A DNA stretch of 64,000 bases from an uncultured Lachnospiraceae bacterium (GTDB lineage: Bacteria > Bacillota > Clostridia > Lachnospirales > Lachnospiraceae): assembly GCA_902761225.1 (NCBI GenBank), contig CACWJQ010000014.1, positions 12,698 through 76,697 on the forward strand, given 5' to 3'. The translations under genes were made by a program, and so were the position numbers. Numbering within the stretch: position 1 is the first letter of the stretch; each line of letters begins with the position of its first letter. The notes below the pieces were generated by a model that had not been told where the DNA came from, did not search any database, and saw nothing but the letters and a program-made list of their open reading frames with translations. This document shows positions 2,594 to 62,877 of the stretch, one piece after another.

Positions 2594-3664
2594 TTACTTA
2601 TTCTTGAAAACCCAGTTTCTCTGGATCTTAAAGCTTACAAAAAACAGACATGTATCGACAACCGCCTTCAGGAGAGTCTTGAGCCAGTCGCTGTTTACCC
2701 TTAAAACCGTGGTAAGCAGTGCGACCAGTCCTAAGGATGCTCCAAGCTGGCACAGAGCAAGTATGGTATACCTCAGGGCACTTTTACCGGTATTGCCGCT
2801 GTGCCCGAAGACTGCCTTTTTGTTGACGATGAAATTGCAGGCCGCAGAGATGATACGTGCAACGGTCCCCGCTATCGTTCCCCTCGATGCTTCGGATATG
2901 ATTGCGGGTATGAAAAAGAGTATCACCCTGAAAGCAACAAGGTCTATTATACACGATAATACGGAACTTGCGGCAAATTTCAGGATCACTCCGTAAATCC
3001 TTGCAGAATCCCTCAAGGGGTGGAAATGTGAGGTCTGATTATCGTCTATATATACCGTCTCTATCGGGACCTCGGAATATGGAATGGAGTCCGATCCTAT
3101 CTTAAGAAGCTGGTTGGTCTCATATTCATATCTGTCTCCGTCCACATGAGTCATATACTCAAGAAGTGATGCCGGGACCGCCCTGAGACCTGTCTGGGTA
3201 TCCGAGACCTTTATACCGCACACATAACGGAATACATTCCTGGTTATCACATTTCCCAGCCTGCTCCTGAAGGGAACCTGAGGAAGGGAAAAGTCCCTGC
3301 ATCCTATGATAAATGCCTTCTTTTCAACCATGGCATCTATACACTTTGCGGCATCAACCGGTGTATGCTGTCCGTCACCGTCAACCGTCACGACTCCGAG
3401 GGAATCCGGCCTTTCCCTGAGAACATACTCAAAGGCAGTCTTCATCGCTCTTCCCTTGCCCTTATTTACTTCGTGGACAAGCACCGTAACCTTATCGGGG
3501 AAACTCTCCTTTATCCTGTCGAACTCACCTGAATGCTTTTCATCCGATCCGTCATCAACCAGTATGACATCCGTGAAGCCCTTCTCTATCATTCCCTGCG
3601 CTGTCTTAAAGAGCTTCTCATCGGGATTCAGCGAAGGGATTATAACCTGAACATTATCGTACAT
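2594..3664 (-). CDS. Bifunctional GT2 glycosyltransferase / GtrA-like flippase
   Basis: IIPSLNP, VDDGS, NKGKG, DGDGQH and DTQTGLR GT2 motifs, then four C-terminal hydrophobic helices. Start moved to MYDN (3664). Confidence 0.85.
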   Translation of the reverse strand: MYDNVQVIIPSLNPDEKLFKTAQGMIEKGFTDVILVDDGSDEKHSGEFDRIKESFPDKVTVLVHEVNKGKGRAMKTAFEYVLRERPDSLGVVTVDGDGQHTPVDAAKCIDAMVEKKAFIIGCRDFSLPQVPFRSRLGNVITRNVFRYVCGIKVSDTQTGLRAVPASLLEYMTHVDGDRYEYETNQLLKIGSDSIPYSEVPIETVYIDDNQTSHFHPLRDSARIYGVILKFAASSVLSCIIDLVAFRVILFFIPAIISEASRGTIAGTVARIISAACNFIVNKKAVFGHSGNTGKSALRYTILALCQLGASLGLVALLTTVLRVNSDWLKTLLKAVVDTCLFFVSFKIQRNWVFKNK

Positions 3665-3723
3665 AAAAACCTCATTTTGTGTTATCATTAAGCCTATCAA
3701 TCAATACGAAAGGAATATACAAA

Positions 3724-4353
3724 ATGGACGCACTCTTACACATGCAGTGGGATGATCAGTTCCTTCTTTTCCTTCAGGAAAATGTCAGAAACGATGTTCT
3801 CACGCCCATCATGAAATTCATCACTCACCTTGGAGACAAGGGAATCCTCTGGATACTTATCGCAGTTCTCCTCTGCTGCTTCAAGAAGACCAGACCCATC
3901 GGGATTATGGCAGGTATCGCACTTGCAATGTCAGTTATTATCAACAATGCGATCCTCAAAAACCTTGTTGCAAGACCCAGGCCCTATCTTCCCGAAACCG
4001 TAGGCGGTCAGGGACTTAAGCTTCTCATCGAAGAACAGGACGACTGGTCATTCCCTTCGGGACATTCGGGAGCATCCTTTGCAGCTGCTGTGGTCTTCCT
4101 TGTAAAGAGCCCCAAAAAATTCGGAATACCTGCGATCATCATGGCATCCCTTATAGCTTTCTCAAGACTTTATGTCGGAGTTCATTATCCCACCGATGTA
4201 TTGGCAGGCATCATCACCGGAACCTTCTGTGCGATAATCTCATTCATGATCTGGAAGATCGTAGAGAATAAAGCATCCGTTAAGATGGCAGGTCTTCTCG
4301 GCATTAAAGCAAAGCCTGAAAATGCGGGATCCGATACAGAAACAAAAGCCTGA
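3724..4353 (+). CDS. PAP2-family phosphatase (probable undecaprenyl-pyrophosphate phosphatase)
   Basis: KNLVARPRP, SFPSGH and SRLYVGVHYPTD acid-phosphatase motifs. Start MDALL follows an RBS-like GAAAGGA. Confidence 0.85.
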   Translation: MDALLHMQWDDQFLLFLQENVRNDVLTPIMKFITHLGDKGILWILIAVLLCCFKKTRPIGIMAGIALAMSVIINNAILKNLVARPRPYLPETVGGQGLKLLIEEQDDWSFPSGHSGASFAAAVVFLVKSPKKFGIPAIIMASLIAFSRLYVGVHYPTDVLAGIITGTFCAIISFMIWKIVENKASVKMAGLLGIKAKPENAGSDTETKA

Positions 4354-4373
4354 AAAAATTTTTTAAAATTTTG

Positions 4374-4402
4374 TTGACAACAAGTCTGCTTTTTAGTATA
4401 TT
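4374..4402 (+). promoter_or_regulatory. Sigma-A promoter of tRNA-Gly
   Basis: TTGACA (4374-4379), 17-bp spacer, TATATT (4397-4402). Confidence 0.85.
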
Positions 4403-4429
4403 AACTTTTGTCGTGCGAAAGCAGACAAT

Positions 4430-4502
4430 GCGACAGTAGCTTAGTTGGTAAAGCGCCACCTTGCCAAGGTGGAGACCGCGGGTTCGAGCCCCGTCTGTCG
4501 CT
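4430..4502 (+). tRNA. tRNA-Gly (GCC); CCA not encoded
   Basis: Cloverleaf: acceptor GCGACAG/CTGTCGC, D stem GCTT/AAGC, anticodon arm CCACC-TTGCCAA-GGTGG, T arm GCGGG-TTCGAGC-CCCGT, discriminator T. Confidence 0.95.
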
Positions 4503-4509
4503 TTTTTTT

Positions 4510-4542
4510 ATTCCTCAGGATCAGGTTCTGAGGAATTTTTTT
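4510..4542 (+). terminator. Intrinsic terminator after tRNA-Gly
   Basis: ATTCCTCAGGA...TTCTGAGGAAT stem followed by a T run. Confidence 0.75.
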
Positions 4543-4587
4543 ATCCTCAGGGGGCGGCCATGATGATGAGCACCGCCCCCGTTTTGT

Positions 4588-6612
4588 TTAGTACTGGACT
4601 CCGGTAAGATCCACACCCATGGCCTGGGCTTCAGCCTCATACTCTGCCCTGAACTGCTCCAAAGCATCTGCGTATCTGATACGGTATATCCTTACCAGCG
4701 CATCGTTGATCCTCTCTTCAGAGATCACACCGCTTCCCACAGCCTCGATAATACCCTCAGCAGCAGCCTTGGGATCGGGTGATGAGTAGATCATGTCACA
4801 GCCTGCCTTAAGGGCCATTACAGCGCTTTCAGAAGCCGTATAGTAGGATGTTATGGCTGCATCGCTCAAAGGGCCGCTAATGATGACTCCGTCGTACTTA
4901 AGTTCATCCCTGAGAACTCCGGTAACGGTCTTGTCCGAGATTGTCGAAGGAAGGGAATCGCTGTCGATGGAAGGATAGATGACATTACTCATCTGGATCA
5001 TCCTGGCACCTGCATTTATGGCAGAAAGCCATACCTGGAACTCATTGCTCCTGAAATCCTCAAGCGTTCTGTCGCTTACAGCTCTTCCGTTTGCGGGATT
5101 CTGTGTCGTTGCGGCAAGTGAAGGAAAGTACCTGTAAGCTGCCACAACTCCACTCTGATAAAGCCCCTCTGCCATGCCTGTAACATAAGGGGTGATGGAA
5201 GCTGCATCGCTGCCGTAGCATGTGCCTGCCATGACTCCTCCGTTCGTAACGGCCAGATCGGCAAGAGGTGCAAAGTTAACGGTTATTCCCACGGAACCCA
5301 GTCCGGTACCGATGGCAGCACCTGTAGATACAACTTCTTCCACGTTACCGCCCTCAGCAGCCTGTGCAGGTGTAAGAACAGACTCTATGATCCCGGCCTT
5401 GATGAGTCCGGATTCATCCATTCCCGTCTCTGTAGTGGCAAGAAATACGGGATGATCCACAAGAGTCAGTGTAGTCTCCATCATGGTGCGGAACTGATCT
5501 GCAGAGGTCACATTTTTGGCGGAATACACTATACCGCCGGGGTTGAATTCCGAAAGAGCATTAGCCGTTCCCTCACCGGCGATAACAACACGGTCAACTC
5601 CCGTTATCGATTCGGGAGTTATGAACATGATAGCCTGAACCTTCTCTTCAAGAGTCATATTCGCTATCTCGGATTCTATGACCTCATCGAGACGCTGCAT
5701 AGGAGTCTGACCGAGGTCCGCTACAGTGGGTGCGGGAGGCACATCCTCCACTGACTGCTGCTGAGCCTGAGCAGCTGCCGCCTCCTCTTCAAGCTGCTGC
5801 TGAAGAGCCGCCTGCTCCTGTGCCAGTGCTTCAGCCTGTCTTTGATGCGATACACTCACGATCTTCTTCACGGCGAAGAATATTCCGCATCCTATAGCTG
5901 CAAGGATAAGGAGAAGGATAAGATATGCCGTGAACTGCTGGCGGATCCTTCTCTTATGTCTGGCTTCGCGTCTGATCCTCTCGTTCTCCGACTGTTCCCT
6001 GAGAGCATTTCTGCTGACCTTGGAATCCCGGGACTTCTTCCTGTCGTCCTCATCGGATTCGTCATCCTCCGAATCTTTGTCGTCATCGGATCTCTCTTCA
6101 TCAGACTTATCTTCGCCGGATCTCTCTTTGTCGGATTTTTCTTTATCGGATTTTTCTTTGTCAGACTTATCCTCATCTGACTTATCTTCATCCGGCTTAT
6201 CTTCATCTGACTTTTCTTCGTCAGCTTTGGATTTCTTATCCGAGTCTTCTGCAGCTTCTGATTCTGATGATGTATCATCTGCAGCTGCTCCGGCTGTCTT
6301 TTCGGCATCCGCATTTCCTTCGGATGTACTTTCGGGATCAGGCTCGGCAGATACACCGCCTTCGGCTGATGCTGCTTCCCGGGTTTCTTCAGCAAATGCA
6401 ATATCTTCAGAAACAGCGTTTTCGGTATTTTCCTCAGCCTGAGCCTCTTTGGAAACGGGCTCTGCCTCATCGAAATCCGACAGATCGAATGTCAGCTCCT
6501 GAGTATAATCTTCGACATTATCACCTGCAGAGCCTTCATTTACCGTCTTCTGCTGCTCCCTGATCTCTTCTTTAGATTGGTTATTCCTGTTTTTCTTCTT
6601 ATGTCTGCTCAA
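4588..6612 (-). CDS. Membrane-anchored GH3 (NagZ-like) domain protein with a long acidic N-terminus; catalytic residues degenerate
   Basis: C-terminal half follows the GH3 N-domain pattern (MTLEEKV, NFAPLADL, LRDELKYDGVII, ALKAGCDMI, ISEERINDALVRI). One TM helix; D/E/K/S-rich N-terminus. Confidence 0.8.
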   Translation of the reverse strand: MSRHKKKNRNNQSKEEIREQQKTVNEGSAGDNVEDYTQELTFDLSDFDEAEPVSKEAQAEENTENAVSEDIAFAEETREAASAEGGVSAEPDPESTSEGNADAEKTAGAAADDTSSESEAAEDSDKKSKADEEKSDEDKPDEDKSDEDKSDKEKSDKEKSDKERSGEDKSDEERSDDDKDSEDDESDEDDRKKSRDSKVSRNALREQSENERIRREARHKRRIRQQFTAYLILLLILAAIGCGIFFAVKKIVSVSHQRQAEALAQEQAALQQQLEEEAAAAQAQQQSVEDVPPAPTVADLGQTPMQRLDEVIESEIANMTLEEKVQAIMFITPESITGVDRVVIAGEGTANALSEFNPGGIVYSAKNVTSADQFRTMMETTLTLVDHPVFLATTETGMDESGLIKAGIIESVLTPAQAAEGGNVEEVVSTGAAIGTGLGSVGITVNFAPLADLAVTNGGVMAGTCYGSDAASITPYVTGMAEGLYQSGVVAAYRYFPSLAATTQNPANGRAVSDRTLEDFRSNEFQVWLSAINAGARMIQMSNVIYPSIDSDSLPSTISDKTVTGVLRDELKYDGVIISGPLSDAAITSYYTASESAVMALKAGCDMIYSSPDPKAAAEGIIEAVGSGVISEERINDALVRIYRIRYADALEQFRAEYEAEAQAMGVDLTGVQY
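6089..6222 (-). repeat. Imperfect 15-bp tandem repeat encoding (E/K)(D/E)KSD pentapeptides
   Basis: Protein reads EEKSD EDKPD EDKSD EDKSD KEKSD KEKSD KERSG EDKSD EERSD. Confidence 0.8.
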
Positions 6613-6670
6613 TTTGTTTTCTCCGGATTATAGAGCTGGTCATAAAAAATGTGTTCTTCCTACAAACAGA

Positions 6671-55660: not shown

Positions 55661-55766
55661 CTTTCAGAGCCATCCGAAGACACATTTTCCGCAAAGATCA
55701 TGGCCGGAAGCCAAAGCATATGAGAATAAAAAAACGGACCCTCATTCAAGGATCCGTATCTTCAAG

Positions 55767-55808
55767 AGCTGATGACCAGAATCGAACTGGTGACCTCCGC
55801 CTTACCAA
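55767..55808 (-). pseudogene. 3' half of tRNA-Thr(GGT): attachment-site (att) duplication
   Basis: Minus strand reads TTGGTAA GGCGG AGGTC ACCAG-TTCGATT-CTGGT CATCAGC T. The 5' anticodon strand, D arm and 5' acceptor strand are absent. Confidence 0.88.
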
Positions 55809-55925
55809 CGGGTAAAAATGCTTTGTCCATTTTTTCATAAATTGCCGCAAATTCAAGTTTTATGCAGTCTGCAGCAATTCATTGTTTTATCCCGTTTTTT
55901 GTTTTTTTATATGTTTTTACAATTT

Positions 55926-55947
55926 TGTTAGCCAAATGTTAGCCAAA
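55926..55947 (+). repeat. Tandem 11-bp direct repeat, candidate integrase arm-type sites
   Basis: TGTTAGCCAAA twice, about 120 bp inside the att core. Confidence 0.6.
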
Positions 55948-55978
55948 AACGAACTGCCGAACTCACATCTAAAAACTG

Positions 55979-56581
55979 TTAGGCATTGTAATCTTTATGC
56001 TGATACAAAACAGTCAGGTTATCCCCAAAAACCTTTGTCTTCTGCATCCAGTATAAAATATCTCCGCCATAAACCGCTTTGTCCTTCTTGAAAAAAGACA
56101 CCACGCAACAATACTCAGGGTTCTCTTCCCTATGTTTTAGGAAAATATATACCGTATCCGAATCTCCCTTAAATTGACTCTCTATAATATAGTCGGCATT
56201 GATCAGTGATGCCATATGTGGCTGGTTTCTTGTAGTAAATACTCTGATAATATTGTCAGTATCTATATATTCCTCCAGAAACCTTAGCGAGCTTATTCGA
56301 CTTTGAATGTCTTTATCCGGAACCGGATTCACATAAAATCTGCTATTCTCAAGTCTTGAATCGGTTATCCTTTTCTTATAAATGATATCATCCAATGTCT
56401 TCTTTCTGTTTCGCGGAATATCAATATCCTTTAAATACTGTAATCCTGTCAGATGATAAAAGTCTTCATCACGGAAATCTACTCTTAACTCCAATAGTTT
56501 TCTATTCCTCGACAGTATGAATTTGTACTCATATCTTGATAAAGCAACATATTTTGCAGCCGCTTCATATATTTTATCCAT
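55979..56581 (-). CDS. PBECR4-like (BECR-fold) putative ribonuclease
   Basis: 200 aa with the F-x-H-L-x-G-L-x-Y-L pattern (DFYHLTGLQYL), I-x-A-D-Y and VSFF, recalled from stand-alone PBECR4 proteins. RBS AAGGA. Confidence 0.6.
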   Translation of the reverse strand: MDKIYEAAAKYVALSRYEYKFILSRNRKLLELRVDFRDEDFYHLTGLQYLKDIDIPRNRKKTLDDIIYKKRITDSRLENSRFYVNPVPDKDIQSRISSLRFLEEYIDTDNIIRVFTTRNQPHMASLINADYIIESQFKGDSDTVYIFLKHREENPEYCCVVSFFKKDKAVYGGDILYWMQKTKVFGDNLTVLYQHKDYNA

Positions 56582-56598
56582 GCTATAATATCCTTATC

Positions 56599-56636
56599 AT
56601 GACAAAAAGCCCTACATTCCTGCAGGGCTTTGTCAT
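56599..56636 (-). terminator. Intrinsic terminator between the ncRNA and the nuclease gene
   Basis: ATGACAAA GCCCTGCA-GGAA-TGTAGGGC TTTTT GTCAT. Confidence 0.8.
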
Positions 56637-56789
56637 CACTCTAAGCAACTTTCTTTCGCCGAAGCTAAGATGGGCTATGGTAAGTTGCCACCTTTGTAAA
56701 CCTCCATGTTCACCGCTTCCCATCGCGGATTCCACTTCATCGGCATATAAAGCATTTTTACGAGTGTGCTTCTCGGGAAGTCACCTTCC
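56603..56789 (-). ncRNA. Candidate structured ncRNA upstream of the PBECR4-like gene
   Basis: Bounded by its own promoter and terminator; several hairpins with GNRA/UUCG loops and a loop-loop complementarity. Confidence 0.6.
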
Positions 56790-56824
56790 GATAATATTAT
56801 CGGAAAAGCACTGCAAAAAGTCAA
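56786..56824 (-). promoter_or_regulatory. Sigma-A promoter with an overlapping 20-bp palindrome
   Basis: TTGACT (56824-56819), 17 bp, GATAAT (56801-56796); palindrome TTCCGATAATATTATCGGAA at 56786-56805. Confidence 0.75.
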
Positions 56825-56865
56825 TAGTATTCAAATATGTTTTTTCATCCGAATCAGATTAGGAA

Positions 56866-58098
56866 CTAGCTGCAAAACAAAATATTCCTGAGAACATCCG
56901 CAGCGACTTTATCCATACTCTTTAAGGCATGCCCATATATATCGAGTGTAACACTGGGATTTGCATGTCCAAGCCGCTCTGCTATAGTTTCGATATTTAC
57001 ATTCCTGCCTATAAGCATTGTTGCATGAGTGTGACGCAGATCATGAAGCCTAATAATTGGAAGCTTTTCCTCAGGGTCAGAAACAGAAGAATTATACAGT
57101 TTTAAGAAATCAACAAATTTCTTCGACGGAGTATCAATATACATAATTGATCCAATCGAATCATCGGTTCTGATAAAGATATAATTCTTGTCGAATTCCT
57201 TACCACGATATCCCGTCCATTTTGAACCAACAGAAAGCGATAATTCCCTCTGCTGATTTTTCCATTCTCTTAACCTATCAAAGCATTCCGGAGGAAGAGT
57301 AATCCTCCTGATTGAAGCCTTTGTTTTAGGTTTTTTAATGATTATTCCACCCGACCTGGTCTTTGATGCAGCTTTATTTATATCTATCTCATATTTTTCA
57401 AAATCTATATCCTTCCAGGTAAGCGCAATCATCTCACCCCGTCTGAAGCCGGAATTCAGGGCTATCATATAAAAAACTTGAAACTGATAAGGCAAGGTTA
57501 TCGGATACTCATAGTCGGGTACTGTATATTTCTCTCCGGTTTTTCTCAGGACCCTCGTATGACCTTTTCGCACAACCATATATGTACGTGGTGTAGGATA
57601 GAAACCATTGTCGATACCAGCTGCCCAACCATAATTGCTATTACCACCATCAGAACCCAGTTCAGGATCCATACCTGAATATTTGGTGAAAGTGAAGACC
57701 GAAGACATTCCGTCTTCTTCCATCTCATTATAAATAGCCTGAAGATGTACTGGGGATATTTTTCCAATAACAAGGTTTCCAATAACAGGCACAGCCCTCC
57801 GTTCAAGATTATACTCGTAATCTTCACGGGCACGGATTGTCAGATCTTTATATGTTTGGTCACATTTCCAATACTGTATCACATCGCAAAACGTCAGCCT
57901 ATCTCCCTCAATGTATTTTCCTTCTTTTATCTTATTCTCAAATTCAACAGCAAAGGCCTGCACCTCCTTTTCAGCCTTTGACGGAGCTGATGAAGTCGGC
58001 TTAAATGTTGTCGTTTTAATAATCTGTTTTCCTTTTTGATCTCTTCCGAGAGAAATAGTTATCTGATAGTTATTTCCTCGTTTTTTTATGCTCGCCAT
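56866..58098 (-). CDS. Tyrosine recombinase/integrase; core-binding region interrupted by a foreign-looking segment
   Basis: MASIKKRG arm-binding N-terminus; catalytic GFRRGE, KPKT, HDLRH, LGH and IYGH. Confidence 0.93.
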   Translation of the reverse strand: MASIKKRGNNYQITISLGRDQKGKQIIKTTTFKPTSSAPSKAEKEVQAFAVEFENKIKEGKYIEGDRLTFCDVIQYWKCDQTYKDLTIRAREDYEYNLERRAVPVIGNLVIGKISPVHLQAIYNEMEEDGMSSVFTFTKYSGMDPELGSDGGNSNYGWAAGIDNGFYPTPRTYMVVRKGHTRVLRKTGEKYTVPDYEYPITLPYQFQVFYMIALNSGFRRGEMIALTWKDIDFEKYEIDINKAASKTRSGGIIIKKPKTKASIRRITLPPECFDRLREWKNQQRELSLSVGSKWTGYRGKEFDKNYIFIRTDDSIGSIMYIDTPSKKFVDFLKLYNSSVSDPEEKLPIIRLHDLRHTHATMLIGRNVNIETIAERLGHANPSVTLDIYGHALKSMDKVAADVLRNILFCS

Positions 58099-58115
58099 CT
58101 TTTATCCTCAAAAAA

Positions 58116-58943
58116 TCAGATCAGTTTTGGTATAGTATCACTATCATCACATGAGGTCCGTATTACCTTCTCATCTAATACAGTCATCTGGGCAGGATCA
58201 ACCAAGATTATAGATACAAACAAATTAAGTATCGGAAATGATTTATCTGACAATTTCCTGAATTTCTGCTCATCAGTAGTTACAAATGATATTTTATCCC
58301 CCGCATTTTCCATTGCTCGAAACACAATATGGGAACATTCCTCTATCGAAGCAGGTTCTTGATAATGCATTACCGCAAATGGCTTCTCAACCATATATAT
58401 GAATGCCCAACGCTGAATGGGTTGCTCATATATGGATACCAGAAAATCCAGTTCAGAGGTATTGGGAGTCGAATTTTTATCCTCTCCTCTCCATTTATAT
58501 CCATGCATTGCAAGAGCATTTGTAATCGTCCCGGTAATACGATTTATATTCTGTTCTACCAGCATGGATTTTCTATCATAAATATCCGTCACTGAGTCAT
58601 AATATCGCACCATACGTCCGTCATAAGATCGAGTTAGTTTTTCTTCTTCACTTAATCTTCGTATTAATTTTTCATTCCATATAAAGTTTTCCGGATTATA
58701 TCCGGATGCTAAAAGCAGCTCTTCAATAGTGACTCCATTAGCTGATACCAATGAAATCTTGAGTAAAGTAGATGGAGTAAGCGGATGATCCATCTTCCCG
58801 CTTAAATAGCAATTCAAATAACTTTTGTTCATTCCTATTTCTTTTGCAAATTCGTTCTGTTGACGATCACCCTTAGCCTTCGATAGAACCATTGAAAATT
58901 CGCGACCATCAAATCCATAATCCGTTTCAACTTTTCTACTCAT
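58116..58943 (-). CDS. XRE-family HTH repressor
   Basis: N-terminal HTH (QQNEFAKEIGMNKSYLNCYLSG); divergent from xis. Confidence 0.75.
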   Translation of the reverse strand: MSRKVETDYGFDGREFSMVLSKAKGDRQQNEFAKEIGMNKSYLNCYLSGKMDHPLTPSTLLKISLVSANGVTIEELLLASGYNPENFIWNEKLIRRLSEEEKLTRSYDGRMVRYYDSVTDIYDRKSMLVEQNINRITGTITNALAMHGYKWRGEDKNSTPNTSELDFLVSIYEQPIQRWAFIYMVEKPFAVMHYQEPASIEECSHIVFRAMENAGDKISFVTTDEQKFRKLSDKSFPILNLFVSIILVDPAQMTVLDEKVIRTSCDDSDTIPKLI

Positions 58944-59057
58944 AATGATCTCCTTATTTGAAATCGATATTTGGATTATAACACGTTAATTCAAATAATG
59001 AAACATAAAATTACGCAAAAATAGATAAAAACCTCTTTTGAAAGTTTTATTTATATG

Positions 59058-59086
59058 TTGACAGTTTTATTTATAGATAATAAAAT
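59058..59086 (+). promoter_or_regulatory. Promoter of the xis-AAA operon
   Basis: TTGACA-17-TAAAAT, overlapped by AGTTTTATTTATA direct repeats. Confidence 0.8.
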
Positions 59087-59144
59087 AAATCTGAACCAAA
59101 TAAATGAAACATATGTTCATTCAAAGAAAGAGAGGTAAAAAAAT

Positions 59145-59342
59145 ATGATTACAGACACCATCCCCGAAATGCTTACCATTAAGGAGACAGCTGAACGTTC
59201 AGGGTTATCCTACGACTCCATTCGCAAAAGGTGCCTAAGAGGAGAAATCGTCTGCATACGTAATGGCAGGAAATTCTTCGTGAATTGGGAAAAATTCGTC
59301 GAATATCTGAACACCGGCATCACAGTAACCGATAATATCTAA
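59145..59342 (+). CDS. Excisionase-like HTH protein
   Basis: MLTIKETAERSGLSYDSIRKRCLRGEI...GRKFFVN (HTH_17/MerR-like). Confidence 0.85.
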   Translation: MITDTIPEMLTIKETAERSGLSYDSIRKRCLRGEIVCIRNGRKFFVNWEKFVEYLNTGITVTDNI

Positions 59343-59360
59343 ACAAATGAAAGGAAAGAT

Positions 59361-60515
59361 ATGAACGATACAAAAGAAAAAGCTGTTCTTGATTCAGCTG
59401 CGGCAACAGCTGAAGAACAGCTTCTTTCGTCTAACGACAATAGTATTATAACAAAATCTCATTATGGAGACAACATAAACCAAGTTGTCTCTTCTTCATG
59501 TCAGTCAGCCCTGGAAACATTTACTGTGTCCGAGTTACTAGATATGTCTTTCAAACCTAAAATCCCGGTTGTAGATGGAATAATCAACCCGGGAACTTAT
59601 ATTTTTGCCGGCGCTCCCAAAGTAGGAAAATCTTTTCTCATGCTTCAGTTTGCATATCATATCGCAAAGGGAATACCACTTTGGAATTATCCTGTACGTC
59701 AAGGATCCGTACTATACCTTGCATTGGAAGACGATTACTCCAGACTTCAGCAAAGAGTTGCCAGAATGTTTGGAGAGGAAGGAAATGAAAACCTACATTT
59801 GGCTACAAAATCCAAAACCATCAAAGATGGCCTGATAGAAGAAATGACAAATTTTGCGCAGAAATACCTTGATGCCAGATTAATAATTATCGATACCCTT
59901 AAGCGTGTCAGAGAATATGATGATGCTCCCATTAGTTATGCCTCAGACTATGACATCATGAAACCTCTAAAGGATTTTAGTGATCAGACTGGTATATCGA
60001 TAATAATAGTTCACCACACCAGAAAAATGGCCGCTGATGACATTTGTGAAACCATTTCCGGAACAAATGGGCTGTTCGGAGCTGTAGATGGAGCACTAAT
60101 ACTTCACAAGAGCAAACGCACTGACACTGAAGCTATTCTTAATGTTATCGGAAGAGACCAGCAGGAACTTGAATTGACTCTTGAAATGGAATCCGAAACA
60201 TGCATATGGAACAAAGTTAAATCCGAAACTGAATTGTTTCCTGTAAAGCCTGATCCGATTCTTGTTGAAATCTCGCAATTCATTACTATTGAGAATCCAT
60301 GCTGGGAAGGCACAGCATCAGAACTTATTGAAGCCGTACCTAATATCCAATACTTAATAAAACCAAATACACTTGTCAGAAAACTTAACATCCATCGTTC
60401 TGGCCTATACAAGGATTTCGGAATTCTCTACGAACCTTTGCAAAGGTCCAGCGAAAGAAAGATTTTCAGATTATCTCTTACATTCGATGATTCCTCGAAT
60501 CCATCATATGACTAA
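59361..60515 (+). CDS. AAA_25 / RepA-helicase-like ATPase
   Basis: Walker A GAPKVGKS, VLYLALED, Walker B IIIDT and IVHHTRK motifs. Confidence 0.85.
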   Translation: MNDTKEKAVLDSAAATAEEQLLSSNDNSIITKSHYGDNINQVVSSSCQSALETFTVSELLDMSFKPKIPVVDGIINPGTYIFAGAPKVGKSFLMLQFAYHIAKGIPLWNYPVRQGSVLYLALEDDYSRLQQRVARMFGEEGNENLHLATKSKTIKDGLIEEMTNFAQKYLDARLIIIDTLKRVREYDDAPISYASDYDIMKPLKDFSDQTGISIIIVHHTRKMAADDICETISGTNGLFGAVDGALILHKSKRTDTEAILNVIGRDQQELELTLEMESETCIWNKVKSETELFPVKPDPILVEISQFITIENPCWEGTASELIEAVPNIQYLIKPNTLVRKLNIHRSGLYKDFGILYEPLQRSSERKIFRLSLTFDDSSNPSYD

Positions 60516-60650
60516 TATGTCGATTATGACGATTGTTAAGGTTACGTCATTAAATACTGATATATCGTCATACGTGCGGTATAAAAGTAATCGTCATCAT
60601 CGTCATTACAGTCACTGTGCATTTCAGAATAATCAAAAAAGCAGGAGGAT

Positions 60651-61016
60651 ATGTTAGTGTATCGACATAATAAGATTACTAAAGAAGATATTGCAAATAA
60701 AATCCGCCTCAATAATCTTCTTACAGACGAGAATATCAGTGAAACCGATCGAATAATCATAAGAGCATTCATAAATATTATTTTCGACATGCTTAACTGC
60801 AAGGAAGAATTAATACATTTCGAATTATTTCACTGTTATGTACGAGCTGAAGGAGTAAAAGAAAATTTTTCTTTAATCGGGTATAAAGAGATCCTATATT
60901 CCCTGGATGAAGTTCACAAGAACTGGTCTTCTATCACAAATGAGACTTTCTTCGAATATGCAAAGAAATATCTTTATGACTCAGTTGGTTACTTTATCCG
61001 AAGAAGATATCGATAA
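60651..61016 (+). CDS. Hypothetical protein
   Basis: RBS AGGAGG, 121 aa; 14 bp upstream of the relaxase gene. Confidence 0.65.
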   Translation: MLVYRHNKITKEDIANKIRLNNLLTDENISETDRIIIRAFINIIFDMLNCKEELIHFELFHCYVRAEGVKENFSLIGYKEILYSLDEVHKNWSSITNETFFEYAKKYLYDSVGYFIRRRYR

Positions 61017-61030
61017 TAGCGGAGTATGAA

Positions 61031-62587
61031 ATGGCAAAAAAACGCGTAACAAACCATACCGGCAGAGTTTCGAAAAAGACCGGTAAGCCCTATAGTCCCA
61101 AACATAATGACAGGGATTTTGATACAGAAAATGCAAAAAACATCATTGAAGAACGTACATCTGAGAACATAAATTGGAGATGGACAGATGAACTGACACA
61201 GGTTCAAAAGGATCATATTTCTCTGGCAGTAGGTAAATGTGTTTCCGAAATGAAAAATGAAGATGTAGAGCAACTCTTCTATGAATTAAACTATTCGGAG
61301 TGGCTCGCAGATCAGAACGAAAAACACATCAAATCCCGTCACACAGAACGTATTAAAACCATGGAACAGATCAGGACAAACAAAAACTATTGTCCTGAAG
61401 AAGATGATCTTCAGATCGGTAAATTATCAGATGAGAGAACAGATCCTGAAATACATGATAAATGCATCGAAGAATATATACGGTTTCTTAATGAAGAATA
61501 CGGATCTCATCTTCACATACTTGACTGGAATACGCATAAGGATGAAGCCGGAGTAACACACACGCAGGTCAGATGGGTATGGGATTATACAGATGAAAAC
61601 GGGTTACTGCGTATCGGTCAAGACAAAGCCCTTGAAGCTCTCGGATTTGATCTTCCGATTCCCGAAGGTACAATATTAAAAGATCAAGACGGAAATATTC
61701 TTTATGAAAGGGACAAAAAAGGTAATATAAAGATCGACAAGGAAACAGGAACTCCTATACCACAAACTGCAAAGCGAAGCCGGTTCAACAACCGCAAAAT
61801 GCCCTTCTCTGCAAGAAACAGAGAAAAATGGCTCGATATATGCGAAGCCCACGGTATTGATGTTGAAAGGGAAGCTGACAAAGAGGCAAAATATGGCCGC
61901 GATCTTGAAGAAGTCATTAATGAAAACAAAACCATCGAAAAAAAGAATGAATCTCTAAAAAAAGAAGAATATTCTCTGGAAGAAAAAATACAAAATCTCG
62001 AGGTAAAAGAAACATTTCTAAATACAAACATATCATCACTTGAAATTCAGAAAAAAGATCTCGAAGATGATGTAAAAAGGCTGTGGGAAATCGTCGATAT
62101 AATTGACAAACAGACTGATAAAAAGAGTAATGACAAAACTACGCCAGAACTACTTACGGAAGAAAAAATCAAAGCTATAAAAATAGAGGAACCTATAGTA
62201 GGACACAGATCTCAAATTCTGATACAAAAAGAGGATTTCAAAAACTTAAAACACACTGCCCTCCAAGTTCAAAAACTAAAAAGATCGATCATCAAACCGC
62301 TTCAAGATATTATAGATTCTCTCAAGAAAAAGATCAGTGATCTTATTGAAAAATTAAAAATAAAAGATAACACTATCGATAAGCAGAAAAAGGAAATTTC
62401 CACGCTTAACCAACAGATTAATATTTTAAAAGAACACAGCGCAAATGACAGTTCAAGGGCAACAAATTATCAGAGATATACCGACTACTGCAGAGGTATA
62501 TGCCGTGAAGCAGGCATAAAAATTTTGACTCCGAATGAATTCATATATGGTCATAAAAAAGATAGAGATCAGAGTCACGGCAGGTGA
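61031..62587 (+). CDS. MOB_V/Pre-like relaxase with C-terminal coiled coil
   Basis: HNDR motif I; HKDEAGVTHTQ resembles HxDExxPHxH; long heptad-rich C-terminus. Confidence 0.75.
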   Translation: MAKKRVTNHTGRVSKKTGKPYSPKHNDRDFDTENAKNIIEERTSENINWRWTDELTQVQKDHISLAVGKCVSEMKNEDVEQLFYELNYSEWLADQNEKHIKSRHTERIKTMEQIRTNKNYCPEEDDLQIGKLSDERTDPEIHDKCIEEYIRFLNEEYGSHLHILDWNTHKDEAGVTHTQVRWVWDYTDENGLLRIGQDKALEALGFDLPIPEGTILKDQDGNILYERDKKGNIKIDKETGTPIPQTAKRSRFNNRKMPFSARNREKWLDICEAHGIDVEREADKEAKYGRDLEEVINENKTIEKKNESLKKEEYSLEEKIQNLEVKETFLNTNISSLEIQKKDLEDDVKRLWEIVDIIDKQTDKKSNDKTTPELLTEEKIKAIKIEEPIVGHRSQILIQKEDFKNLKHTALQVQKLKRSIIKPLQDIIDSLKKKISDLIEKLKIKDNTIDKQKKEISTLNQQINILKEHSANDSSRATNYQRYTDYCRGICREAGIKILTPNEFIYGHKKDRDQSHGR

Positions 62588-62628
62588 CCACTCCAACAAA
62601 ATACCTTGGCGGTCTGTGTCATGTAGTA

Positions 62629-62669
62629 CCCCGTACTCCTTGTCGCAAGCGACAAGGGTACAACCGGGG
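62629..62669. other. Candidate oriT hairpin
   Basis: CCCCG-TACT-CCTTGTCGC-AA-GCGACAAGG-GTACAA-CCGGGG nested inverted repeat next to the relaxase gene. Confidence 0.4.
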
Positions 62670-62877
62670 CTCTCCGAGGGGTCTCTTAGGGCTTGCAGCC
62701 CTGCCGACAGCAGCCCGCTCCCAGTGAAAAGAACACAAAAATCCCTCAACGGGATTTTAATGTTTTTTCACCGGCGCAGAAGAATAGTCTTCTGCGAAAA
62801 CCATCCTCGGGAAGCATCTTCCCGACATCATGCATTCCCTCTCAAAAAATAACATAGATTCCTTACTGAAATCTATG

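What the first reader, a model, noticed from the sequence alone, without database searches (positions are those of the whole stretch)
55979..56824. Candidate new RNA-antitoxin (type III-like) system: structured ~187-nt RNA plus PBECR4-like nuclease
Seen on the minus strand, in order: a TTGACT-17-GATAAT promoter, predicted +1 at G56789, and a 5' hairpin GGAAG-GUGA-CUUCC abutting CGAG-AAGCACA-CUCG. Next is a CCGC-GAUGGGAA-GCGG hairpin whose loop GAUGGG (56724-56719) is complementary to CCCAUC (56674-56669). That partner sits inside a GCAACUU/AAGUUGC stem (56688-56682/56651-56645) that also encloses a GC-UUCG-GC hairpin, so a kissing or pseudoknot fold is possible. A GGAA-loop terminator with U5 ends ~56603, and the nuclease RBS follows about 8 nt later. 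Promoter-RNA-terminator-RNase is the established architecture of type III TA loci (ToxIN, CptIN, TenpIN), where a leaky terminator keeps RNA in excess. Here the protein looks BECR-fold rather than ToxN-like, and the RNA has no tandem repeats. Inference: an undescribed RNA-neutralised nuclease acting in element maintenance or abortive anti-phage defence.
Basis: partly seen in the sequence, partly recalled or inferred. Interest (0 to 1): 0.85.

Follow-up and report, generated by a model that had tools for sequence, protein, structure and literature searches.

The report
Drum RNA paired with PBECR4 nuclease gene
The structured RNA is real and expressed, but it is a divergent copy of the already catalogued, function-unknown "drum" RNA; it always sits just upstream of a predicted PBECR4 RNase gene, and phages carry lone copies of it among their tRNA and RNA-repair genes, which makes an RNA-antidote role directly testable.

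Summary
The pseudoknot GAUGGG/CCCAUC and the other stems are backed by strong covariation across about 40 relatives. Metatranscriptome contigs show a discrete small RNA, with occasional read-through into the ORF.

The RNA is not a new class. It is a sub-threshold member of Rfam RF02958, the drum RNA (38.8 bits against a cut-off of 43, E 2e-5). Relatives upstream of homologous genes pass the cut-off. The ORF is a clear PBECR4 protein (Pfam E 1e-19).

The cassette promoter–drum–terminator–PBECR4 is conserved in Lachnospiraceae, Ruminococcus, Treponema and Enterococcus plasmids. It has no other conserved neighbour.

Many large phage contigs carry orphan drum RNAs inside tRNA arrays, beside RNA ligase and phosphoesterase genes. 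One copy is 97% identical to the window's RNA, over exactly the predicted transcript body. One phage carries three drums with three different pseudoknot sequences.

The best reading is a type III-like, RNA-neutralised nuclease module, with phage-borne RNA decoys (confidence about 0.5). This is untested: neither toxicity, nor RNA–protein binding, nor the BECR fold is shown. The locus fails two defining features of classical type III systems, having no repeats and no ToxN-type toxin.

The parts
56796..56824 (-). Sigma-70-type promoter-like site: TTGACT, 17-nt spacer, GATAAT
   Evidence: 10 of 12 consensus positions. A comparable site lies upstream of 44 of 48 PBECR4-linked drum RNAs.
56604..56789 (-). 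Whole predicted small RNA of about 186 nt, from +1 G56789 to the terminator U-run
   Evidence: Whole contigs from RNA runs span 56604-56780. Homology to phage locus L057 starts exactly at 56789.
56761..56789 (-). Two 5' hairpins, GGAAG-GUGA-CUUCC and CGAG-AAGCACA-CUCG. They lie outside the Rfam drum model but are part of the conserved unit.
   Evidence: Helices 1 and 2 are 81% and 92% paired, with changes on both sides. Both are retained in the phage copy.
56640..56745 (-). Drum RNA core: P1, P2 hairpin, invariant GGU/ACC, long-range stem, inner hairpin and the conserved CGAAAGAAA
   Evidence: Rfam RF02958: 38.8 bits, E 2e-5, model positions 1-112. Own covariance model R1: 109.9 bits.
56719..56724 (-). 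Pseudoknot 5' strand, GAUGGG, in the loop of the CCGC/GCGG hairpin
   Evidence: All 6 pairs covary and 99.1% of cells are paired.
56669..56674 (-). Pseudoknot 3' strand, CCCAUC, inside the GCAACUU/AAGUUGC stem
56604..56631 (-). Intrinsic terminator: 11-bp stem, GGAA loop, U5 run
   Evidence: Read. A terminator-like hairpin with a T-run follows 44 of 48 PBECR4-linked drums. One RNA-run contig (56508-56766) reads through it.
55979..56581 (-). 200-aa PBECR4-family protein (predicted BECR-type RNase), with RBS AAGGA at 56595-56591
   Evidence: Pfam PF18813: E 9.8e-20, 72 bits against a cut-off of 27. 146 homologues were found. H43, S162 and 22 other columns are invariant in the 35-sequence alignment. 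AF2 model pLDDT 89.9.
56866..58098 (-). Tyrosine integrase of the small integrative element that carries the cassette (context, not part of the module)
   Evidence: Pfam Phage_integrase 1.4e-18. It is not shared with any other drum-PBECR4 locus.
55765..55801 (-). 3' half of a tRNA-like gene. It is a probable attachment-site remnant marking the element's end and is followed by a terminator at 55757-55734.

Best explanation
**What it is.** The locus is a self-contained two-part cassette. A constitutive-looking promoter makes a ~150-186-nt pseudoknotted RNA of the drum family (RF02958). This RNA usually ends at its own terminator and accumulates. Occasional read-through transcribes and allows translation of the PBECR4 gene 23 nt downstream, a predicted metal-independent RNase.

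**How it most likely works.** I propose the drum RNA acts in trans as the cognate inhibitor (antitoxin) of PBECR4, in the manner of type III toxin-antitoxin/abortive-infection modules. RNA in excess keeps the nuclease silent. Loss of the element, or phage-induced shut-off of host transcription, lets the nuclease attack cellular RNA, possibly tRNA. Phages counter this by carrying promoter-less, terminator-less drum copies in their tRNA/RNA-repair islands as decoys.

**Shown here.**
- RNA family identity.
- The structure, with covariation.
- Expression as a discrete species, with read-through.
- The strict RNA-gene linkage.
- The absence of any conserved protein partner.
- The phage orphan copies.

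**Inferred.**
- PBECR4 is a toxic RNase.
- The RNA binds and neutralises it.
- Any trigger.
- The decoy role of the phage copies.
For: 1. **Linkage, starting from the protein.** 45 of the 47 genome loci encoding homologues down to 27% identity have a drum directly upstream on the same strand. The conserved CGAAAGAAA lies 61-83 nt before the ATG in most of them. Of the other two, L039 is cut by a contig end. L047 is missed by the model but shows a drum-like variant by eye. Three Enterococcus plasmid loci at 29% identity also carry it.
2. **Linkage, starting from the RNA.** A search with an RNA-only pattern returned 22 viral-contig loci. In 18 of them a PBECR4 ORF starts about 65 nt downstream.
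3. **One RNA per gene.** L046 has two tandem drum-PBECR4 units.
4. **No other conserved neighbour.** The integrase and the other element genes of the window occur in none of the 72 loci held at that point. Neighbourhoods differ between loci and hold no conserved small ORF. The RNA is therefore the only candidate immunity partner for a predicted BECR toxin.
5. **RNA in excess.** Seven RNA runs give whole contigs confined to 56604-56780. An eighth (X27, 56508-56766) crosses the terminator into the ORF. None covers the rest of the ORF or the integrase.
6. **Action in trans, phage copy of the window's RNA.** Phage locus L057 has a copy 144/148 identical to the window's RNA over exactly 56789-56642. 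Its flanks are unrelated, it has no terminator or ORF, and it abuts a tRNA.
7. **Action in trans, other phage copies.** At least 12 further viral contigs hold drums inside tRNA arrays. Next to these arrays lie RNA ligase and phosphoesterase genes.
8. **Several specificities in one phage.** L092 has three drums with three different, internally complementary pseudoknot sequences.
9. **Precedents.**
   - Another Weinberg-2017 motif, abiF, proved to be a non-repeat RNA antitoxin (PMC12373285).
   - Phage pseudo-ToxI neutralises ToxN (PMC3475682).
   - Phage tRNAs counter tRNA-targeting defences (PMC10264068, PMC11555353).
10. **Conflict-system context.** The cassette occurs on integrative elements, on plasmids beside TIR/AAA genes, and beside a ToxN/AbiQ toxin gene.
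Against: - No experiment and no computation here shows that PBECR4 is toxic, is an RNase, or binds the RNA.
- The AF2 model (pLDDT 89.9) matches no solved structure (best Foldseek E 0.37). A profile search of PDB sequences found nothing. The nuclease assignment therefore rests on the Pfam family, on Iyer et al. 2017, and on the conserved His and Ser.
- PBECR4 is absent from PADLOC and PHROGs.
- The RNA has no repeats. Nothing suggests the protein processes it.
- The highest-scoring drums (62-93 bits) are the phage orphans. They sit beside other enigmatic RNAs such as skipping-rope and ROOL. The family's primary role could therefore be something phages need that has nothing to do with PBECR4.
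- L005 has a second drum with no PBECR4 gene after it.
- The RNA-run evidence is from assembled contigs, which have no strand information and give poor quantification.
Confidence: 0.5

Rival explanations
1. Drum is an obligate partner, not an inhibitor. RNA and PBECR4 would form an active ribonucleoprotein in which the RNA acts as scaffold, specificity element or sensor, and the RNP carries out the defence or RNA-processing function.
For: - The RNA-gene linkage is strict and one-to-one.
- The RNA is complex and highly conserved, with an invariant single-stranded core. That is more elaborate than needed for simple occlusion.
- The discoverers judged the motif likely to have a 'sophisticated biochemical function' (PMC5737381).
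Against: - Phages carry the RNA without the protein, in up to three variants and among counter-defence genes. That is hard to explain if the RNA only works as a cofactor of a protein the phage lacks.
- The terminator architecture gives RNA in excess over the protein, which is typical of an antidote.
Confidence: 0.2
2. Drum has a PBECR4-independent job in tRNA/RNA-repair biology, which would explain why phages keep it in tRNA arrays with RNA ligases, skipping-rope and ROOL. In cellular elements, PBECR4 would merely be its processing or turnover enzyme, or a co-travelling gene.
For: - The best Rfam scores belong to the orphan phage copies.
- These copies sit with RNA ligase (PF09414), phosphoesterases, skipping-rope and ROOL.
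- L005 has a drum with no PBECR4 gene after it.
Against: - This does not explain why every solo PBECR4 gene examined keeps a drum with its own promoter and terminator immediately upstream, across phyla and replicon types.
- It also does not explain why tandem gene copies each keep one.
Confidence: 0.17
3. Drum is only a cis-acting leader. It would be a riboswitch or protein-dependent attenuator that sets read-through of the terminator into PBECR4, with no trans function.
For: - In the cellular loci it always lies in the 5' leader with a terminator before the ORF.
- Read-through transcripts exist.
- RCd22 of AbiF acts in cis as well as in trans (PMC12373285).
Against: - The spacer between the last drum helix and the terminator varies in length and sequence, and the two do not overlap. 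No expression platform is therefore shared with the fold.
- Phage copies lack both terminator and ORF, yet keep the whole fold.
- Weinberg et al. also argued against a riboswitch role.
Confidence: 0.1
4. The region encodes a small protein (ORFs at 56735-56583 or 56824-56675), or the hairpins are chance.
For: Two ORFs of about 50 aa overlap the region. One database gene call, P0021, is extended through the homologous stretch.
Against: - Substitutions are compensatory in stems and in the pseudoknot, with 0 of 500 shuffles reaching the observed values.
- The ORFs are not kept in distant relatives.
- There is an Rfam match.
Confidence: 0.01

Closest known systems
Drum RNA motif (Rfam RF02958; Weinberg et al. 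2017, PMC5737381)
   Same: - Full-length match to the model (positions 1-112), with the same stems.
- A 3' intrinsic terminator.
- Association with one nearby protein family.
- Relatives upstream of homologous genes pass the curated cut-off.
   Different: - The window copy scores 38.8 bits, below the 43-bit cut-off.
- It carries two extra conserved 5' hairpins that the Rfam model does not cover.
- No function is known for the family.
- I could not read the discoverers' supplementary text naming the associated protein, so I cannot say whether the PBECR4 link was already stated.
Type III toxin-antitoxin systems ToxIN, CptIN and TenpIN
   Same: - The order promoter, antitoxin RNA, terminator, toxin gene.
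- A pseudoknotted RNA.
- RNA far more abundant than the mRNA.
- Location on mobile elements.
- A phage-borne RNA mimic, analogous to pseudo-ToxI (PMC3475682).
   Different: - The RNA is single-copy, not tandem repeats.
- The protein is PBECR4, not ToxN/AbiQ, CptN or TenpN.
- There is no evidence of self-processing or of a cyclic RNP.
AbiF-RCd22 of Clostridioides difficile (abiF RNA motif; PMC12373285)
   Same: - A structured, non-repeat RNA from the same 2017 motif catalogue, sitting upstream of a toxic RNA-targeting protein on a prophage.
- It was shown to neutralise the toxin by direct binding, in cis and in trans.
- This is the best functional precedent.
   Different: - The RNA fold is unrelated (two abiF motifs).
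- The protein is unrelated (Abi_2/HEPN-like).
- Nothing equivalent has been tested for drum.
Phage tRNA-array RNAs and counter-defence islands (phage tRNAs, skipping-rope, ROOL/GOLLD)
   Same: Orphan drums lie in the same arrays as tRNAs, skipping-rope and ROOL, beside RNA ligase and phosphoesterase genes. Phage tRNAs are known to counter tRNA-targeting defences (PMC10264068, PMC11555353).
   Different: The window copy is not in such an array. It has its own promoter and terminator and is tied to a protein gene.
BECR-fold toxins with protein immunity (colicins D/E5, CdiA-CT, BECR-Tox2/Imm2; bioRxiv 10.64898/2026.08.28.747851)
   Same: - A predicted metal-independent RNase.
- A His in the pre-alpha helix and a Ser/Thr on a C-terminal strand, as described for PBECR domains (PMC5512222).
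   Different: - No adjacent immunity protein gene is conserved.
- The only conserved partner is an RNA.
- Similarity of the fold to solved BECR structures was not detected.

Membership tests
drum RNA (Rfam RF02958) | Covariance-model score at or above the curated gathering score (43 bits) | tested here: not met
   The window scores 38.8 bits, E 2e-5, covering model positions 1-112. Fourteen of the first 20 homologue loci have a drum at 43.7-56.2 bits directly upstream of the gene, and L005 has one downstream. Enterococcus plasmid loci score 50.4-51.8. Phage copies score 62-93. I therefore treat the window copy as a divergent member.
drum RNA (Rfam RF02958) | Conserved multi-stem fold supported by covariation | tested here: met
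   92.6-92.8% of cells are paired. 22 of 28 and 38 of 48 pairs change on both sides. The pseudoknot is 96-99% paired. Versions with the partner slid by 1-3 columns are only 37-47% paired.
drum RNA (Rfam RF02958) | Rho-independent terminator at the 3' end (as described in PMC5737381) | tested here: met
   Terminator at 56631-56604. A terminator-like hairpin follows 44 of 48 PBECR4-linked drums. The copies in phage tRNA arrays lack one.
drum RNA (Rfam RF02958) | Association with one specific protein family encoded nearby | tested here: met
   PBECR4 lies directly downstream in 45 of 47 protein-anchored genome loci, in 3 of 3 plasmid loci, and in 18 of 22 RNA-anchored loci. Whether this is the protein the discoverers meant could not be checked, because the supplement is not held.
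PBECR4 (Pfam PF18813) | Score above Pfam's gathering threshold | tested here: met
   72.1 bits against a cut-off of 27, E 9.8e-20, residues 3-168.
PBECR4 (Pfam PF18813) | PBECR active-site pattern: His in the N-terminal (pre-alpha) helix and Ser/Thr near the C-terminus (PMC5512222) | tested here: met
   H43 lies in helix 38-45 and S162 on strand 157-165. Both are invariant in 35 sequences. This is sequence-level evidence only.
PBECR4 (Pfam PF18813) | BECR fold resembling solved barnase/EndoU/colicin/RelE nucleases | tested here: inconclusive
   The model is confident (pLDDT 89.9) but has no PDB match (best E 0.37). The PDB sequence-profile search found nothing. Only two unnamed viral models match.
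PBECR4 (Pfam PF18813) | Ribonuclease activity | not testable with these tools
   This needs a biochemical assay.
Type III toxin-antitoxin (ToxIN/CptIN/TenpIN) | Gene order promoter, RNA, terminator, toxin, with RNA in excess | tested here: met
Type III toxin-antitoxin (ToxIN/CptIN/TenpIN) | Antitoxin made of tandem direct repeats that the toxin cleaves into units | tested here: not met
   No tandem repeat lies in 56582-56865. There is one drum per gene.
Type III toxin-antitoxin (ToxIN/CptIN/TenpIN) | Toxin belongs to the ToxN/AbiQ, CptN or TenpN families | tested here: not met
   Pfam gives only PBECR4 and PADLOC gives no hit. As a positive control, the AbiQ/ToxN protein of L046 is found by both libraries.
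Type III toxin-antitoxin (ToxIN/CptIN/TenpIN) | Protein is toxic and is neutralised by direct binding of the RNA | not testable with these tools
   This needs toxicity/rescue and binding assays.
Riboswitch / cis-acting leader | Expression platform overlapping the conserved fold, and occurrence restricted to 5' UTRs | tested here: not met
   The spacer before the terminator is variable and does not overlap the fold. Many copies have no downstream ORF or terminator.

The most novel reading that the evidence does not exclude
Drum RNAs are trans-acting RNA antidotes of PBECR4 nucleases. This would be a new class of type III-like toxin-antitoxin or abortive-infection module, with a BECR-type toxin and a single-copy pseudoknotted antitoxin. 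Large phages would stock orphan drum RNAs, sometimes in several pseudoknot specificities, in their tRNA/RNA-repair islands as anti-defence decoys. It would give a first function to a widespread orphan RNA class. It might also hint at the roles of its neighbours, such as skipping-rope and the DUF3800 RNAs.
Probability: 0.45. Interest if true: 0.8.

Novelty: new variant of a known kind. Interest (0 to 1): 0.65.

Why it matters
Drum has been in Rfam since 2017 as one of a few bacterial RNAs judged complex enough for a 'sophisticated biochemical function'. No role has been assigned, and no paper in the searched library links it to PBECR4 or to toxin-antitoxin biology.

This work supplies three concrete facts:
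- Every solo PBECR4 gene examined has a drum with its own promoter and terminator directly upstream.
- The cassette has no other conserved partner.
- Phages carry the RNA alone, among tRNAs and RNA-repair enzymes.

Together these turn an open question into a simple, testable hypothesis: express the protein with and without the RNA.

If the hypothesis holds, three things follow:
- RNA-antitoxin systems extend beyond ToxN-type toxins and repeat RNAs.
- PBECR4 joins the list of defence effectors.
- A new kind of phage counter-defence, structured RNA decoys kept in tRNA islands, is identified.

If it fails, the linkage still defines the protein partner for future work on drum.

Tried and rejected
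- **Rfam at curated thresholds.** Only a tRNA was found in the window. The drum hit appeared only in E-value mode.
- **Structure.** Foldseek against the PDB and a profile search of PDB sequences gave nothing usable. BFVD gave two unnamed viral proteins. The BECR fold could therefore not be confirmed.
- **Defence and phage libraries.** PADLOC and PHROGs have no model for the protein.
- **GenBank phage genomes.** No DNA match to the RNA and no protein match. All phage evidence comes from IMG/VR contigs.
- **Shared mobile element.** I tested whether the cassette travels with the window's integrase or other element genes. No shared gene was found in the 72 loci held at that point, so the idea of a fixed integrase-linked function was rejected.
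- **Second att site.** I looked for a direct repeat marking the other end of the element and found none of 14 nt or more.
- **Literature gaps.** The supplementary text of Weinberg 2017, which names the drum-associated protein, is not held. One 2026 preprint on coevolutionary mining of non-coding elements could not be opened.
- **Small-protein reading.** Considered and rejected for the region, because substitutions are compensatory.
- **Classical riboswitch reading.** Considered and rejected, because there is no overlapping expression platform and orphan copies exist.
Full report
**Observation.** On the minus strand the window reads, in order:
- a tyrosine integrase (58098-56866; Pfam 1.4e-18);
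- a 284-nt intergenic region;
- a 200-codon ORF (56581-55979);
- about 180 nt further on, the 3' half of a tRNA-like gene with a terminator.

- TTGACT-17-GATAAT at 56824-56796, the best promoter-like site in the region;
- two 5' hairpins (56789-56776 and 56775-56761);
- the CCGC-GAUGGGAA-GCGG hairpin;
- loop GAUGGG (56724-56719) complementary to CCCAUC (56674-56669);
- the GCAACUU/AAGUUGC stem (56688-56682 with 56651-56645);
- a GC-UUCG-GC hairpin;
- a GGAA-loop terminator whose U-run ends at 56604;
- AAGGA and then ATG at 56581.

The 201-nt stretch folds better than all 200 shuffles (z = -3.7). No tandem repeat lies in it.

**The RNA is a known family.** At curated thresholds Rfam finds only a tRNA in the window. 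In E-value mode, bases 56745-56640 match RF02958, the drum RNA, over the whole model (1-112) at 38.8 bits. The gathering score is 43 and the E-value is 2e-5.

Drum was described by Weinberg et al. 2017 (PMC5737381). [quoted passage not shown] They considered these motifs improbable riboswitches and ribozymes. The supplementary text that names the protein is not held.

I found no paper in the library that assigns drum a function or links it to PBECR4.

**The protein.** The ORF matches Pfam PBECR4 (PF18813) at E 9.8e-20, 72 bits against a cut-off of 27. There are 146 homologues, almost all solo proteins of about 200 aa.

In a 35-sequence alignment, H43 (motif DFxHxxG) and S162 are invariant, along with R95, S125, S135, R151, K166, Y171 and K181 among others (24 invariant columns). 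This fits the PBECR pattern of Iyer et al. [quoted passage not shown]

An AF2 model is confident (pLDDT 89.9, pTM 0.84). It resembles no solved structure (best Foldseek E 0.37). A profile search of PDB sequences is empty, and only two unnamed viral models match. PADLOC and PHROGs have no model for the protein. The call 'nuclease' is therefore a family-level prediction and is not confirmed here.

**Structure is conserved with covariation.** I fetched 47 genome loci encoding homologues at 65% down to 27% identity. They come from Lachnospiraceae, Butyrivibrio, Blautia, Ruminococcus, Oscillospiraceae, Acutalibacteraceae, Treponema and Erysipelothrix. Their upstream regions show the same layout by eye and align well.

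- 92.8% of cells paired, against 79.7% in shuffles;
- 38 of 48 pairs changed on both sides;
- 0 of 500 shuffles reaching any measure;
- 37-47% paired when the partner is slid by 1-3 columns.

The pseudoknot is 99.1% paired and all six pairs covary. Examples are GAUGGG/CCCAUC, GAUGGA/UCCAUC, CUAGG/CCUAG, UUCAAG/CUUGAA and GCCGAC/GUCGG. The long-range stem is 95.6% paired, with 5 of 7 pairs covarying. GGU/ACC is invariant. A second alignment that includes phage and plasmid copies gives the same picture.

**The RNA and the gene are one cassette.**
- Rfam at curated thresholds finds drum directly upstream of the PBECR4 gene, on the same strand, in 14 of the first 20 loci.
- My covariance model R1 finds it in every protein-anchored locus except L039, which is cut by a contig end, and L047. 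L047 shows an Enterococcus-type variant by eye.
- PBECR4 genes on Enterococcus plasmids, at only 29% identity, have a drum at 50-52 bits ending 54 nt before the CDS. Their neighbours are TIR, DUF6414 and AAA-ATPase genes.
- A promoter-like site precedes 44 of 48 of these drums, and a terminator-like hairpin with a T-run follows 44 of 48.
- The conserved CGAAAGAAA lies 61-83 nt before the ATG in most loci.
- Starting from the RNA instead, a drum-core pattern returned 22 viral-contig loci. In 18 of them a PBECR4 ORF starts about 65 nt downstream. Of the other four, two are cut by locus ends and two are orphan copies.
- L046 has two tandem drum-PBECR4 units, followed by a ToxN/AbiQ toxin gene.
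- Nothing else is conserved. None of the 72 loci held at that point shares the window's integrase, repressor, HTH_17, AAA_25 or 518-aa genes. Neighbourhoods differ from place to place and hold no conserved small ORF.

**Expression.** In seven (meta)transcriptomic runs from several studies, whole assembled contigs match the window exactly or with one mismatch, and are confined to 56604-56780. The spans are 56620-56776, 56622-56780, 56604-56771, 56626-56777, 56639-56780, 56633-56780 and 56633-56769.

An eighth run, X27, gives a 56508-56766 contig that runs through the terminator into the ORF. No run covers the rest of the ORF or the integrase.

This fits a discrete, abundant RNA of about 150-186 nt with partial read-through. 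These are contigs, not reads, so strand and abundance are only indicative.

**Phage orphan copies.** Phage contig L057 (83 kb) holds a drum that is 144/148 identical to the window's RNA. The identity starts exactly at G56789 and ends at 56642, and the flanks are unrelated. This copy has no promoter box, terminator or PBECR4 gene. It abuts a tRNA within an array of six tRNAs.

A second RNA pattern returned 39 new viral-contig loci, and R1 confirmed 31 drums in 28 of them. Only two of those loci, L100 and L116, have PBECR4 downstream. At least 12 have the drum inside a tRNA array.

These orphans score 62-93 bits on the Rfam model. They share their arrays with skipping-rope RNA (L065, L092) and ROOL RNA (L101). 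They also lie near RNA ligases (PF09414), metallophosphoesterases and HNH endonucleases.

L092 carries three drums whose pseudoknots differ but remain internally complementary: UUCAAG/CUUGAA, UCCAG/CUGGA and GUCGGAA/UUCCGAC.

**Mechanism.** Three facts together are best explained by a type III-like toxin-antitoxin or abortive-infection module:
- the RNA is the only conserved partner of a predicted toxin-class RNase;
- the terminator makes RNA exceed mRNA;
- the RNA alone circulates in phages, among genes that repair or replace damaged tRNA.

In this reading drum binds and silences PBECR4, and the phage copies are decoys.

Precedents exist. ToxIN has the phage mimic pseudo-ToxI (PMC3475682). 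The abiF motif, from the same 2017 catalogue, was shown in 2025 to be a non-repeat RNA antitoxin (PMC12373285). Phage tRNAs act as counter-defence (PMC10264068, PMC11555353).

I put this reading at about 0.5. The rivals are:
- an obligate RNP in which the RNA is a cofactor (0.2);
- a PBECR4-independent role in tRNA/RNA-repair biology (0.17);
- a purely cis-acting leader (0.1), weakened by the variable, non-overlapping spacer before the terminator and by the orphan copies;
- coding sequence or chance (0.01).

**Comparison and membership.**
- *Drum family.* The locus is a divergent member. It misses the curated score by 4 bits but meets the structural, terminator and protein-association features.
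- *PBECR4.* It is a clear member.
- *Classical type III families.* It works like a type III system in layout, but it is not a member. The RNA has no repeats, and the toxin is not of the ToxN, CptN or TenpN type.

**Novelty.** The RNA class and the protein family are both already catalogued. The locus itself is a new, divergent member of each.

What appears not to be in the searched literature is the system-level reading (drum as the cognate RNA of PBECR4) and the observation of orphan drums in phage tRNA/RNA-repair islands. If the antitoxin role is confirmed, this is a new variant of the type III principle.

Caveat: the discoverers' supplement may already name the associated protein.

**What led nowhere.** See the field on things tried and rejected. 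In brief:
- PDB fold and sequence searches, PADLOC, PHROGs and GenBank phage genomes found nothing useful.
- No shared integrase and no second att repeat were found.
- Two texts could not be read.

Noticed in passing
window 55734-55801 (-): This is the 3' half of a tRNA-like gene: T-arm ACCAG-TTCGATT-CTGGT plus the acceptor strand. It is unique in the window and is followed by a strong terminator (55757-55734). It is probably the displaced attachment-site remnant at one end of the integrative element. The other end was not found, as no direct repeat of 14 nt or more exists.
   Followed up: partly
window 55765-62700: A small integrative element of about 7 kb carries the cassette. It holds the integrase, a 275-aa cI-like HTH protein (58943-58116), an HTH_17 excisionase-like protein (59145-59342), an AAA_25 primase/helicase-like ATPase (59361-60515), a 121-aa ORF, and a 518-aa ORF with only a weak LmuB-like hit. 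ABC-transporter genes follow from 62878.
   Followed up: partly
window 55926-55947: A perfect 11-nt tandem duplication (TGTTAGCCAAA x2) lies between the PBECR4 stop codon and the tRNA-like fragment. It may be a recombinase arm-type site.
   Followed up: no
L046 2851-5259: Two tandem drum-PBECR4 units. The second gene is split into two ORFs and is probably frameshifted. A ToxN/AbiQ type III toxin gene follows immediately (Pfam 1e-32, PADLOC AbiQ 2e-28). No search was made for its own ToxI-like repeats.
   Followed up: partly
L092 6500-11900: On a 105-kb viral contig, three drum RNAs with different pseudoknot sequences are interleaved with tRNAs. A skipping-rope RNA (6524-6616), an RNA ligase (3434-4606) and two metallophosphoesterases lie nearby.
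   Followed up: yes
L101 3980-9570; L065 2615-3960: ROOL RNA (315 bits) shares a phage tRNA array with a drum in L101. In L065, skipping-rope, drum and tRNA-Tyr share a 2.3-kb stretch with no ORF of 80 aa or more. Several 'orphan' structured RNAs therefore co-reside in phage tRNA islands.
   Followed up: partly
L005 1923-2040: A second drum (56 bits on Rfam) lies downstream of the PBECR4 gene and is followed by a P-loop kinase-like ORF, not by PBECR4. It is either an orphan copy in a cellular genome or the remnant of a lost unit.
   Followed up: partly
L070-L072 (Enterococcus plasmids): The drum-PBECR4 cassette lies next to TIR-domain, DUF6414 and AAA-ATPase genes on conjugative and non-mobilizable Enterococcus plasmids, including an optrA plasmid. 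These are cultured hosts in which the system could be tested.
   Followed up: partly
L016 6180-6655: Two TwoAYGGAY RNAs (112 and 103 bits) lie on opposite strands about 2 kb downstream of a drum-PBECR4 cassette.
   Followed up: no
P0021 / L073 6001-6762: The database gene call for this homologue carries a 50-residue N-terminal extension (MESVTEGGEHGGLQRWQLT...). This is simply the drum RNA translated, so it is an annotation artefact. The window has the same spurious ORF at 56735-56583.
   Followed up: yes
L057 2086-2169: The tRNA that abuts the phage drum copy is 84 nt long. ARAGORN reports an undetermined anticodon for it. It may contain an intron or be otherwise unusual.
   Followed up: no
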